From a virus (Duplodnaviria > Heunggongvirae > Uroviricota > Caudoviricetes), in the IMG/VR virus record IMGVR_UViG_2529293078_000008, positions 1 to 7,004 of that record: 7,004 nt of DNA; one strand, written 5' to 3'. Shown here piece after piece: positions 3,001 to 6,000 of this stretch. The position numbers are program-made. The stretch's first letter is position 1; each line of letters begins with the position of its first letter.

Positions 3001-6000
3001 TCTTAGTCTTGGATATTCTGACCTTACGCTGATTAATGGTCGGGTAACCTTGTTCGTTTAGCCATTTACAGATAGCAAACATCGACATACCAGACAGACG
3101 CTTGTCATAGATGATATTCACCAGTGACGCTTTATCTTCATCAACGATGTAGTGTGAACCGTCTTCTGATAGCTCTAACCATCCGGGGGCTTGCTTACCC
3201 ATAGGCTTCTTAAGTTCTCTTGCAAGCTGTGTTTTATGGTTCCAGACCTGAGCTATACGCTTTTGTTTAACAAGAGATTCCTGATGTGCTCGCTCAGCTA
3301 TGATGATGTGCTTAATCAACTTCACAGGGTCTGTTAAGGCTGACTTGTCGTAGAGTTCACCATCTCCCAGAGTCAGTATAGAGACTCCCTTCCTCAGTAT
3401 CTGCCTAACGTCATCTATAGCTGTGTCGATATCTGCCCTACTGAAGCGGTCAAAGTTCTCTACAACAATCAAGGAACCTTCTGGAATAGCCCCAGACATA
3501 ACATTTTCAAACATACGTCTGAAGTCAGAACCTTGAGCCTTATGTTGCTGGTGAAAACCAGATTTACCCTTATCAACGTATCTGTGAGCAGGAAGAAGGT
3601 AATAATCGTTTTTGTGCTTAGAGTAGAAAGCATCAATGAGGTTTGTTTGCCGTCTTAAGGAGTCTCCTGAGTCTTGCTCTTTAGTACTCCACCTGATGTA
3701 TGTCACTAGCAGCTTCATATCTTCGGACTATGCTTATCTAAGTGGTTCATTGAACAGGAGAACAATGATATGAGTGTTAAGGCAAGAATACTAGTGCTTT
3801 ATTATTCCATGTACGGACATATTGAAACCATGAAGCATTAAAAACACAGAATTACCGAAGATCGTCCAAGAGCATATATTTTTCAATCTGTTACACCTCA
3901 TTTTGACCATGAAGAAATCAATTTTACACCGTTCTTTATACGTTCTTTTTTGCCCCAAATATGCCCCAAACAACCACATTTTGCCCCAATAGTGCCCCAA
4001 ACATTTAAGGGGATTTAACTTGATATTTCAGATAATTAACGCAAGTTTGCGATGCGAATTTGCGTTAATTTTCTGGATGAGGCATTTACCGTTACCCGTT
4101 CATCAATATTCCGCTGATTGACAAATCCTCCAGAGCTATCGCATACTGACCGCACTGAACAAATAAGCGGTCTCCGCACCCGATAGCTTTGCGGCTTTTT
4201 TATGCCTGCAATTTGGCATAGTTACATCCGTACAAAGGTCGGGTGGAGAGGCGTAATACAACACCCGCAAGGGGAATATGCCCAGAGCTTCTTATTTGGC
4301 TCAGTTGACACCCGACCGCCAGCTACTAACTGGCGGTTATAAACTAAACAAATAAGGAGGTCATCATGACCAGTCAACTCATCCCCGTATTCAACGGCAC
4401 TATCGCCAACGAAACCACTCTTCTCGTTAATGCCCGTGATTTACATACTTTTCTTGGAGTAGGTAAACGCTTTGCATCGTGGATTACAGAACGTATTGAA
4501 GAGTACGGATTCGTTGAAAATCAGGACTATATAGCTATTTCCCAGAAACGGGAAATAGGTTATGGGCGAGGGAAAAAAGACTACCACCTTACCCTCGATA
4601 CAGCCAAAGAAACGGCGATGGTAGAGCGTAACGAAAAAGGCCGACAGATACGCAGATACTTCATCGAGTGCGAAAAGAAACTTCGCAACATGCAGTCGGC
4701 ACAAGCAGAACCACAGCAACAATTCACAGACGAGGAAATCATCCTCCTCTGCTACATGCAACTCTGGATGGAAAAAGCCCAGGACCTCAGCAAACACCTG
4801 TATCCGATCATGAAAGAGCTGAACTCCTCATACACGAACAAGCTGTATGACATTGCGTTTGAGACCATCTACATGGTGACGAAGAACAGAGATGTGCTAC
4901 TGAGAGAGGCGGCACGGCTTGACCAGTCGAGTTTCGTAGTTCAGCGGGCCAGACCAATGCTGAAAAGCCTGCGGGCAAGGCAATTCGAATTCTAAAACCA
5001 AAGGAGCTTCGGCTCCTTTTTTCATGCCTGAAGGAAAGGAAAATGGCAGATATCATCGACAACGCCGCTGAAATCGAAGAATTGCAGCGCAATCTCTCCC
5101 TGCAAAAATACAAATCCGATAGTAATGCCCCATCTGCTACTCATTGTTGCGAGTGTGGCGATCCGATAGATGAGCGGCGACGCCTGGCTGTTCGTGGATG
5201 CAGAGCTTGCGCCAGTTGCCAGCAGGATATTGAACTTATCAACAAACAGAGAGGTGTGAAGTGAACATCAACACCACGATAACGATCGATACAGCCCTGA
5301 ACACCGGCCTAGCGCTCCTTGGTTATTTCTACATCATGTTCTGCAGCGGACGATGGCTGTCACTGTTGTTCATGAAAAAATGGAATAAACGCCGTAAGCA
5401 GGAGCAACGCCAAAAGGCAATAGATGCATTTTTCGAAGCCTTCGGTATTGACGGCATGGAACCAGGGGATCCAGCTCGCGCAATTAGCAGAGGGGGCGTA
5501 GTAATCCTTGTATACCGGAGTGAAGAGAAAAATGAGCAAGATTGACTATCAGGCACTGCGTGAAAAGGCAGAGAAAGCAACTAAAGGAAGCTACATCGTA
5601 GGGCATACATCTGTTAACCAGCACGGCAATTTAACAGGAGTTTTTGTTTGCCAAAAATGGAAAGGAGAACCCGGTGGCGTGATTGCAGAATGTCATGTTA
5701 ACTGCCTGGTTGAAACAGATGCTCAGGCTTATGCAACGCTGAATTCATAGCAGAGGCTAACCCGGCTACCGTGCTGGAACTGCTGGATGAACGGGAAAGA
5801 AACCAGCAATACATCAAACGCCGCGACCAGGAGAACGAGGAGATTGCGCTTACGGTTGGGAAGCTGAGAGTTGAGCTGGGAGCAGCAGAGAACAACCTTA
5901 TTGATAGTGAATGCCATGTTGCTGAACTGGAAGAAGCGCTACGCGATAAGCAGGCGTTACTTGAAGCATCAGAGAAGCGCATAGCAGAACTGGAAGCCGA

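What the first reader, a model, noticed from the sequence alone, without database searches (positions are those of the whole stretch)
3930..4001. Six helically phased direct repeats between the att core and the early operon
CGTTCTTT x2 and TGCCCCAA(A) x4 recur at 10-11 bp or 20 bp intervals with phased A/T tracts. That periodicity places every repeat on the same face of the helix, the signature of a cooperative protein-binding array or intrinsically bent DNA. Given the location on the P' side of the putative att core, candidates are binding sites for a directionality factor or architectural protein, replication iterons, or operator sites for the early promoter. The array is too short and irregular to be CRISPR.
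Basis: seen in the sequence. Interest (0 to 1): 0.5.

Follow-up and report, generated by a model that had tools for sequence, protein, structure and literature searches.

The report
Integrase arm-binding repeats of Stx phage
The phased repeats are real and are most likely the outer ("arm-type") docking sites for the integrase of a 933W/Sp5-type Shiga-toxin prophage; this is a textbook kind of element, not described for this integrase family in the literature I could search.

Summary
CGTTCTTT occurs twice (3930, 3941) and TGCCCCAA four times (3951, 3962, 3982, 3993), all within about 0.5 bp of one helical face.

The window is a junction of two integrated elements in wrbA. From 3829 rightward it is the int-distal end of an Sp5/933W-type Stx2 prophage. 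The neighbouring 547-aa serine recombinase belongs to a different element that lacks these repeats.

- **Restricted to attP:** in the complete Stx2 phage I genome (933W species), all seven TGCCCCAA copies lie in attP, six on this arm and one of a TGCCCCAG/TGCCCCAA pair in the 3' end of the tyrosine integrase gene.
- **Travels with the integrase:** the motif follows the att/int module, not the antirepressor gene.
- **Recurs in relatives:** the same layout (two proximal sites, distal sites spaced 11/19-20/11 bp) appears in VT1-Sakai (yehV) and K-12 Rac (ttcA). A TG(C/T)CCCA-N4-TGCCCCA pair sits at the int 3' end in 77 of 80 homologous loci, held by DNA-level selection.
- **Integrase domain:** the integrase carries Pfam Arm-DNA-bind_2.

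Best reading: arm-type Int-binding sites of attP/attR. Operator and iteron readings are rejected. The role of CGTTCTTT is unresolved. No binding was measured. This is a new member of a known kind, of modest interest.

The parts
3822..3828 (.). att core/overlap TTGAAAC of the 933W/Sp5-type phage in wrbA. Stx-phage DNA begins at 3829.
   Evidence: Annotated as 'attachment site' or 'duplication due to insertion' in AP004402, AP000422 and the LC645xxx records. The alignment and the junction comparison with FORC_041 and Sakai agree.
3856..3873 (+). Conserved distal-arm block CGAAGATCGTCCAAGAGC, of unknown role.
   Evidence: The same block (CGAAGATCGTCCAGGAGC) occurs in the reconstructed VT1-Sakai attP, although the core, host gene and neighbours differ.
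3879..3893 (+). IHF-like element TTTTTCAATCTGTTA. Its TTTCAATCTGTTA part is one mismatch from WATCAANNNNTTR (consensus recalled from memory).
   Evidence: TTTTTCAATGTGTTA sits at the equivalent place in the K-12 Rac distal arm, and TTTTTCAAGGGTTGG in VT1-Sakai. Binding is inferred only.
3930..3937 (+). CGTTCTTT copy 1. Either a candidate excisionase/accessory site or a decayed arm-type site.
   Evidence: Invariant in 7 wrbA-type phages, but the flanks are about 91% identical, so this conservation is weak evidence.
3941..3948 (+). CGTTCTTT copy 2, 11 bp after copy 1 and 10 bp before the first TGCCCCAA.
   Evidence: In alignment A4 Rac and VT1-Sakai have an arm-type site (TGCCCCTT, TGTCCCAT) at this position.
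3951..3958 (+). Arm-type site 1 (TGCCCCAA).
3962..3969 (+). Arm-type site 2 (TGCCCCAA).
3982..3989 (+). Arm-type site 3 (TGCCCCAA).
3993..4000 (+). Arm-type site 4 (TGCCCCAA; CGCCCCAA in the Oslovirus lineage).
4027..4077 (+). 23-bp hairpin at the outer edge of the att module. It may be a counterpart of lambda tI/sib, or a palindromic protein site. Whether it belongs to the system is uncertain.
   Evidence: RNA fold dG -28.3 kcal/mol, z -6.2. It is shared with all wrbA-inserting phages, and the att module ends at about 4117-4142. One compensatory G-C to A-U change between lineages can be read. Rac has a canonical terminator at the equivalent place.

Best explanation
The four TGCCCCAA repeats are the int-distal (lambda 'P-arm'-like) arm-type binding sites of the attachment site of a 933W/Sp5-type Shiga-toxin phage.

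Proposed mechanism:
- The phage's tyrosine integrase is encoded about 60 kb away, at the other end of the prophage, and is not in this window. It has an N-terminal arm-binding domain and a C-terminal catalytic/core-binding part.
- N-domains dock cooperatively on the phased TGCCCCA sites of this arm, and on a TGCCCCAG/TGCCCCAA pair inside the 3' end of int on the other arm.
- The catalytic domains hold the core around the 7-bp overlap TTGAAAC (3822-3828).
- A bend between core and array, probably by IHF at 3879-3893, lets one integrase bridge arm and core and build the intasome for integration. In the prophage state seen here (attR-type junction) the same bridging would serve excision together with the DUF1233 excisionase.
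- The CGTTCTTT pair on the core-proximal side of the array is either the excisionase/accessory site (the position of X1-X2 next to P2 in lambda, from memory) or a pair of decayed arm sites.

Shown: sequence, phasing, restriction to attP, presence on both arms, linkage to the integrase family, DNA-level selection. Inferred: which protein binds, the IHF bend, and the role of CGTTCTTT.
For: 1. From 3791 rightward the window is 100% identical to O157:H7 Sp5-type prophage ends. The core is annotated in several records.

2. In the complete circular Stx2 phage I genome (61,765 bp) all 7 TGCCCCAA copies on either strand lie in attP: 6 on this arm and 1 on the int side, where it pairs with a TGCCCCAG 11 bp upstream. 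About 1.85 copies are expected by chance.

3. Mosaic test. wrbA-inserting Oslovirus phages (P13374, phi191, TL-2011c, Ss-VASD) share window 3791-4142, including the repeats, but not ant. Phages integrated elsewhere (Stx2-86, P27, 75/02) share 4118-4400 (ant promoter and gene) but not the repeats. The phage 86 locus has no GCCCCAA.

4. The cognate Int has Pfam Arm-DNA-bind_2 (E 6e-26, 90.6 bits against a cut-off of 22) plus Phage_integrase.

5. Two independent family members have the same architecture.
- VT1-Sakai (Int 66% identical, attB yehV, neighbour dinI): TGTCCCAT/TGCCCCAT in the int 3' end, and TGTCCCAT/TGCCCCAT/TGCCCCAT on the distal arm, all at 11-bp spacing.
- K-12 Rac (Int 44% identical, attB ttcA): TTTGCCCCCAA/TTTGCCCCATT just after the int stop, and TTTGCCCC x3 plus TTTGCCAC at the far prophage end with spacing 11/19/11, against 11/20/11 here.

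6. Of 80 loci encoding 46-70%-identical integrases across Enterobacterales, 65 have exactly one GCCCC-N6-GCCCC pair, always at the int 3' end and nowhere else in about 4.3 kb. Twelve more have TGTCCCA-N4-TGCCCCA.

7. Selection acts at the DNA level. Among the 65 loci with an exact pair (ascertained on GCCCC, so the GCC and CCC codons are invariant by construction), the unselected flanking bases are informative. The codon before the first site always ends in T although it encodes F, Y, N, D, S or T. The residues over the second site vary (M/V/L/A, then H/Q/R) while TGCCCC stays. In Rac the pair is non-coding.

8. Lambda, read directly, has the same logic: P'1-P'3 tandem at 10-11 bp overlapping the int 3' end, and P1/P2 on the far arm.

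9. Copy number changes in whole 31-nt units (4, 6 or 8 sites), which keeps phase and rules out coding.
Against: - No binding data exist, and nothing here tests which protein binds.
- The DUF1233 excisionase co-occurs with the integrase in 75 of 80 loci, so co-occurrence cannot separate Int from Xis.
- The N-domain shows no detectable similarity to the lambda Int N-domain by hhalign or to any solved structure. 'Arm-binding' therefore rests on the Pfam family assignment.
- Yersinia phage YP3 (Int 62% identical) has the proximal pair but no distal array anywhere in its record. That record also contains an internal duplication and may be rearranged.
- All sites have one orientation, unlike lambda P2.
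- Four to eight distal sites is more than lambda needs, so some may be redundant.
Confidence: 0.78

Rival explanations
1. The TGCCCCAA array binds the excisionase (DUF1233 recombination directionality factor) rather than the integrase.
For: Tandem phased direct repeats are typical of directionality-factor sites. The excisionase gene accompanies int in 75 of 80 homologous loci, so it is equally 'linked' to the motif.
Against: The motif sits on both arms, including a pair abutting or overlapping the int 3' end in 77 of 80 loci. That is the position of lambda's Int sites P'1-P'3, whereas lambda Xis acts on one arm only (from memory). The integrase carries a dedicated arm-DNA-binding domain that needs a target.
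Confidence: 0.1
2. The repeats are operators or enhancer-like sites controlling the downstream antirepressor (ant) operon.
For: They lie upstream of ant (4366-4995), on the same strand.
Against: The array ends 117 bp upstream of the only promoter-like site (TTGACA 4118 / CATACT 4147). Phages that share the ant promoter and gene but integrate elsewhere lack the repeats, and wrbA-integrating phages without this ant keep them. VT1-Sakai and Rac have the same array next to unrelated genes.
Confidence: 0.03
3. The array is a functionless product of replication slippage or unequal exchange, or acts only as intrinsically bent DNA with no sequence-specific protein.
For: Copy number varies in 31-nt units (4, 6, 8). 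The repeats carry short A and T runs.
Against: The 7-bp motif is conserved across integrases down to 44% identity, on both arms, with DNA-level selection inside a coding region. AA/TT periodicity is not exceptional.
Confidence: 0.04
4. The repeats are replication iterons, or accessory sites for the adjacent large serine recombinase.
For: Short phased direct repeats resemble iterons. A recombinase gene (2075-3718, minus strand) lies 210 bp to the left.
Against: The phage replicates with lambda-type O/P genes about 14 kb away, and the motif occurs nowhere else in the genome. The serine-recombinase element is found without the Stx phage in many E. coli. In FORC_041 it abuts an intact wrbA with no TGCCCCA or CGTTCTTT. 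Large serine recombinases use simple sites without arm repeats (established knowledge).
Confidence: 0.02

Closest known systems
Phage lambda attP arm-type Int sites (P1, P2, P'1-P'3)
   Same: - Short repeats outside the core, on both arms.
- A tandem set at 10-11 bp spacing overlaps the 3' end of int (lambda P'1-P'3 at L099 386-416, with the int stop at 413).
- A second set lies about 100-140 bp from the core on the far arm.
- The cognate enzyme is a tyrosine integrase with a separate N-terminal arm-binding domain.
- An IHF-like element lies between core and distal sites.
- A hairpin or terminator lies beyond the distal arm, comparable to tI/sib.
   Different: - The motif is TGCCCCA, not C/AAGTCACTAT.
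- The N-domain belongs to a different Pfam family (Arm-DNA-bind_2) and shows no detectable similarity to lambda's.
- Site numbers are reversed: 2 proximal and 4-8 distal, against 3 proximal and 2 distal.
- All sites point the same way.
- The distal array is copy-number polymorphic.
'Region III, arrangement g/gg' repeat annotated in Stx1/Stx2 phage GenBank records (AP004402, AP005153, AP005154; Sato et al. 2003 records)
   Same: It is the same DNA. The repeat and its g versus gg copy-number difference were already noted by the depositors.
   Different: The records give no function. The papers themselves were not available in the held library. Linkage to the integrase, the proximal pair, and the family-wide motif are from this analysis.
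K-12 Rac prophage att sites (IntR/XisR)
   Same: The integrase and excisionase families are homologous. The motif (TTTGCCCC) and layout are the same: 2 proximal sites, then distal sites at 11/19/11 bp spacing.
   Different: The core differs (ttcA). The proximal pair is non-coding. There is no CGTTCTTT pair. A canonical terminator replaces the long hairpin.

Membership tests
Arm-type integrase-binding sites of a lambda-type attP | Short repeated motif outside the crossover core, present on both arms of attP | tested here: met
   Stx2 phage I has 6 distal sites and a proximal pair flanking the core. The same holds in the reconstructed VT1-Sakai attP and in Rac.
Arm-type integrase-binding sites of a lambda-type attP | Cognate recombinase is a tyrosine integrase with a distinct N-terminal arm-DNA-binding domain | tested here: met
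   Pfam Arm-DNA-bind_2 at 90.6 bits (cut-off 22) plus Phage_integrase. This rests on the Pfam assignment only: there was no hit to the lambda N-domain or to solved structures. The gene is not in the window.
Arm-type integrase-binding sites of a lambda-type attP | Motif is inherited with the integrase family, independent of core sequence and neighbouring genes | tested here: met
   Mosaic boundaries. Three different attB genes (wrbA, yehV, ttcA). 77 of 80 homologous loci. Codon-level evidence.
Arm-type integrase-binding sites of a lambda-type attP | Accessory bending-protein (IHF) site between core and arm sites | tested here: inconclusive
   TTTTTCAATCTGTTA at 3879-3893 is one mismatch from the IHF consensus recalled from memory, and is conserved in Rac. 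There is no binding test.
Arm-type integrase-binding sites of a lambda-type attP | Int N-domain physically binds the sites, and the sites are required for recombination | not testable with these tools
   Needs EMSA or footprinting and att-site mutagenesis.
Excisionase (RDF) binding sites | Tandem repeats on one arm only, next to an Int arm site | tested here: not met
   This verdict is for TGCCCCAA, which is on both arms. For CGTTCTTT the location fits, on the core-proximal side of the array, but there is no counterpart in VT1-Sakai or Rac, so that case is inconclusive.
Operator array of the ant promoter | Sites overlap or adjoin the promoter and travel with the regulated gene | tested here: not met
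   The array ends 117 bp upstream of the promoter-like site. The ant module occurs without the repeats, and the repeats without this ant.
Replication iterons | Located at the origin, with the initiator gene | tested here: not met
   The O/P genes are about 14 kb away in the phage genome. The motif is confined to attP.
Large serine recombinase att site (the adjacent gene) | The repeats belong to the serine-recombinase element | tested here: not met
   The element with an intact wrbA in FORC_041 has no TGCCCCA or CGTTCTTT. The repeats begin beyond the Stx-phage core.

The most novel reading that the evidence does not exclude
The distal array is more than a static docking platform. Its copy number (4, 6 or 8 sites, changing in 31-nt steps between otherwise near-identical Stx phages) may tune how readily the Stx prophage integrates or excises. 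Alternatively, Int bound to the array may gate read-through from the int transcript into the hairpin and ant module, coupling integrase occupancy to antirepressor expression. Either would link an att-site polymorphism to Stx-phage stability and induction.
Probability: 0.12. Interest if true: 0.55.

Novelty: new member of a known kind. Interest (0 to 1): 0.3.

Why it matters
The integrase family concerned mobilises the main Shiga-toxin phages of E. coli O157 (933W/Sp5 in wrbA, Sp15/VT1-Sakai in yehV) and the K-12 Rac prophage.

A concrete arm-site consensus follows from this work: TGCCCCA, in pairs 11 bp apart, proximal plus distal.
- It gives testable targets for altering Stx-prophage excision and stability.
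- It marks the true prophage ends in annotation.
- It explains a repeat polymorphism recorded since 2003.
- It offers K-12 Rac as a safe model for testing.

Conceptually it adds nothing beyond the lambda paradigm.

Tried and rejected
- **Literature:** searches for arm sites of 933W, Stx or Rac integrases, and for the motif string, found nothing specific. The Sato et al. 2003 paper is not held.
- **Similarity of the N-domain to known arm-binding domains:** hhalign of a 25-sequence N-domain profile against lambda Int gave no similarity. phmmer and hmmsearch against PDB sequences hit only catalytic domains or nothing. I ran no further search on the N-domain fold, because it would not separate Int from Xis.
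- **Separating Int from Xis by co-occurrence:** this failed, since xis is present in 75 of 80 loci.
- **Intrinsic bending:** AA/TT periodicity is not exceptional.
- **Minus-strand ORF 3791-4000 (ORF-43 in AP004402):** rejected as coding, because related phages differ by 31- and 62-nt indels.
- **Inverted TGCCCCAT inside int:** this encodes the conserved catalytic QMGH motif and is not counted as a site.
- **CGTTCTTTA as a boxA:** it is one base from the boxA consensus CGCTCTTTA (recalled from memory). There is no boxB hairpin at the expected distance, and the position, beyond att at the end of the leftward operon, does not fit a nut site. Kept only as a remote possibility.
- **Yersinia phage YP3:** no distal array was found. 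Unexplained.
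Full report
**Observation**

The sequence is as described.
- CGTTCTTT lies at 3930-3937 and 3941-3948.
- TGCCCCAA lies at 3951-3958, 3962-3969, 3982-3989 and 3993-4000.
- The four TGCCCCAA copies form two copies of a 25-nt repeat whose starts lie 31 nt apart (3948-3972 and 3979-4003).

Exact TGCCCCAA is expected 0.16 times in the window and occurs four times within 50 bp. These are the only exact 8-mer repeats at 10-11 bp spacing in the 7 kb, whereas random sequences of the same composition average 0.26 such pairs. 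The six starts fall within about 0.5 bp of one helical face (resultant 0.98 at 10.5 bp, p about 0.003). The separate claim of phased A/T tracts is not distinguishable from background.

**Context**

The window is a junction of two integrated elements in wrbA.

*Left element.* Positions 80-3832 match many E. coli chromosomes that carry tape-measure and Dit-like tail genes and a 547-aa large serine recombinase (2075-3718, minus strand; Pfam Resolvase, Recombinase and Zn_ribbon_recom). This element abuts wrbA. In strain FORC_041 it supplies a substitute 5' end (ATG at window 3770), giving an intact 201-aa wrbA followed by yccJ and agp. It has no TGCCCCA or CGTTCTTT.

*Right element.* From 3791 to 7004 the window is 100% identical to O157:H7 Sp5-type Stx2 prophage ends. 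Positions 3794-4400 are 100% identical to the VT2-Sakai record, whose annotated attachment site corresponds to TTGAAAC at 3822-3828. An Stx phage has therefore integrated into a wrbA regenerated by another element.

The repeats lie 129-178 bp inside the Stx prophage end. This is the end annotated 'attR core' in 933W.

**The complete attP**

In the circular Stx2 phage I genome the order along the int-sense strand is as follows:
- xis (DUF1233);
- int (444 aa);
- core;
- the repeats, annotated only as 'arrangement gg; region III';
- a hairpin;
- ant.

That phage has six TGCCCCAA copies here. It also has a TGCCCCAG/TGCCCCAA pair, 11 bp apart and in the same orientation, on the other side of the core inside the 3' end of int. 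Across all 61,765 bp and both strands, every one of the seven TGCCCCAA copies lies in attP, against about 1.85 expected. The integrase carries Pfam Arm-DNA-bind_2 (E 6e-26) and Phage_integrase.

**Which module do the repeats belong to?**

A natural experiment answers this.
- wrbA-integrating phages of another genus (P13374, phi191, TL-2011c, Ss-VASD) share window 3791-4142, that is core, repeats and hairpin, and then diverge.
- Phages integrated elsewhere (Stx2-86, P27, 75/02) share 4118-4400, that is the ant promoter region and gene, but not the repeats. The phage-86 locus contains no GCCCCAA.
- The boundary coincides with the only promoter-like site, TTGACA 4118 / CATACT 4147.

The array therefore travels with att and int, not with ant. 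Copy number is 4 (this window, Sakai, P13374, Ss-VASD, two Stx1a phages), 6 (Stx2 phage I) or 8 (Min27). It always changes in 31-nt units, which keeps phase and excludes a coding role for the minus-strand ORF.

**Relatives of the integrase**

*VT1-Sakai* (Int 66% identical; attB yehV; neighbour dinI, not ant). When its attP is rebuilt from the two prophage ends, it has TGTCCCAT/TGCCCCAT in the int 3' end and TGTCCCAT/TGCCCCAT/TGCCCCAT on the distal arm, all at 11-bp spacing.

*K-12 Rac* (IntR 44% identical; attB ttcA). It has TTTGCCCCCAA/TTTGCCCCATT just after the int stop. About 100-150 bp inside the far end it has TTTGCCCC three times plus TTTGCCAC, spaced 11/19/11 bp. The window's spacing is 11/20/11.

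*Survey of 80 loci.* A scan of one genome per species returned 80 loci with 46-70%-identical integrases.
- 65 have exactly one GCCCC-N6-GCCCC pair, always at the int 3' end and nowhere else in about 4.3 kb.
- 12 more have TGTCCCA-N4-TGCCCCA.
- 3 have neither.

*DNA-level selection.* The pair usually lies in codons for a variable C-terminal tail, x-A-P-x-(M/V/L)-P-(H/Q/R).
- In the 65 loci with an exact pair, Ala is always GCC and the second Pro always CCC. This follows from how the loci were chosen, so it is not independent evidence.
- The unselected flanking bases are informative. The preceding codon always ends in T although it encodes F, Y, N, D, S or T, and the residues around the second site vary while TGCCCC stays.
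- In Rac the pair is non-coding.

The constraint is on the DNA, not the protein. The N-terminal domain is the best conserved part of these integrases, which matches the conserved motif.

**Comparison with lambda**

I read lambda directly. P'1-P'3 are tandem at 10-11 bp and overlap the int stop. P1 and P2 lie 100-140 bp from the core on the far arm. The architecture here is the same in kind, with a different motif, a different N-domain family and reversed site numbers.

**Mechanism**

The heterobivalent integrase would bind TGCCCCA through its N-domain and the core through its catalytic part. DNA bending between them would allow bridging. The candidate bend site is TTTTTCAATCTGTTA at 3879-3893, which is conserved in Rac.

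In this window the array is part of the attR-type junction and would serve excision with Xis. Binding itself is inferred, not shown.

**What remains open**

- Int versus Xis cannot be separated by co-occurrence, because xis is present in 75 of 80 loci. Presence on both arms and the lambda precedent favour Int.
- The N-domain has no detectable similarity to lambda's or to any solved structure.
- YP3 shows only the proximal pair.
- The CGTTCTTT pair is specific to the wrbA-type phages. It occupies the position of lambda's Xis sites relative to P2 (from memory). However, in the three-way alignment Rac and VT1-Sakai have arm-type sites at that place, and CGTTCTTT differs from TGCCCCTT only by C/T transitions. 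It may therefore be a decayed or low-affinity arm site.

**Rejected readings**

- Operators for ant, on mosaic structure and distance.
- Iterons, because O/P lie about 14 kb away and the motif is confined to attP.
- Accessory sites of the adjacent serine recombinase, because that element lacks them.
- Chance.
- CRISPR.

**Novelty and verdict**

The repeat was annotated without function in 2002-2003 GenBank records. I found no paper assigning arm-type sites for this integrase family in the held library. The kind of element is textbook.

This is a real and probably functional feature, correctly spotted. It is best explained as integrase arm-type sites (confidence about 0.78), a new member of a known kind, and of modest interest.

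Noticed in passing
window 1-3841: A second integrated element carries tape-measure and Dit-like tail genes and a 547-aa large serine recombinase. It supplies a substitute 5' end for wrbA (ATG at 3770, MSVKARILVLYYSMYGHIETM...). In strains without the Stx phage this regenerates an intact 201-aa wrbA. Here the Stx phage integrated into that regenerated gene about 30 bp downstream, so two elements target the first ~20 codons of wrbA. No complete E. coli genome in the collection covers 80% or more of the window.
   Followed up: partly
window 1299-1829: Part of the Dit-like baseplate gene of the serine-recombinase element is 93-94% identical at the nucleotide level to virulent FelixO1-like phages of Salmonella and E. 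coli. This is an unexpected link between an integrated element and a strictly lytic phage group.
   Followed up: no
window 4027-4077: A near-perfect 23-bp hairpin (dG -28.3 kcal/mol, z -6.2) lies at the outer edge of the att module on the int-sense strand, with no T-run. Between phage lineages there is one compensatory G-C to A-U change, one G.U to A-U change and one disruption. Rac has a canonical terminator at the equivalent position. It may be a counterpart of lambda tI/sib, or a palindromic protein site.
   Followed up: partly
window 4237-4325 (+): An Rfam sRNA-Xcc1 (RF02221) match at 69.1 bits (gathering score 53) lies in the long leader of the antirepressor gene, downstream of the promoter-like site at 4118-4147.
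   Followed up: no
L001 2425-2443; L012, L010 and 77 of the loci L017-L096 (int 3' ends): The C-terminal tail of these integrases (x-A-P-x-M/V/L-P-H/Q) is translated across the proximal arm-site pair. In Rac the gene stops just before the pair. The tail looks like overprinting of a DNA element rather than a selected peptide.
   Followed up: yes
window 3856-3873; L014 (VT1-Sakai distal arm): An 18-nt block, CGAAGATCGTCCA(A/G)GAGC, is shared by the distal arms of 933W-type and VT1-Sakai attP despite different cores and host genes. Its role is unknown.
   Followed up: no
L100 (Yersinia phage YP3, PV092592): The record has the proximal TGCCCCAT/TGCCCCAA pair but no distal array. It also contains an internal duplication: the same 45-nt context appears at 1002 and 31152. 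The record may be rearranged or incomplete.
   Followed up: partly
L004 (Min27), L001 (Stx2 phage I), window: Array copy number is polymorphic among near-identical Stx phages: 4, 6 or 8 TGCCCCAA sites in 31-nt steps. This matches the 'g' versus 'gg' annotation in the 2003 GenBank records.
   Followed up: partly
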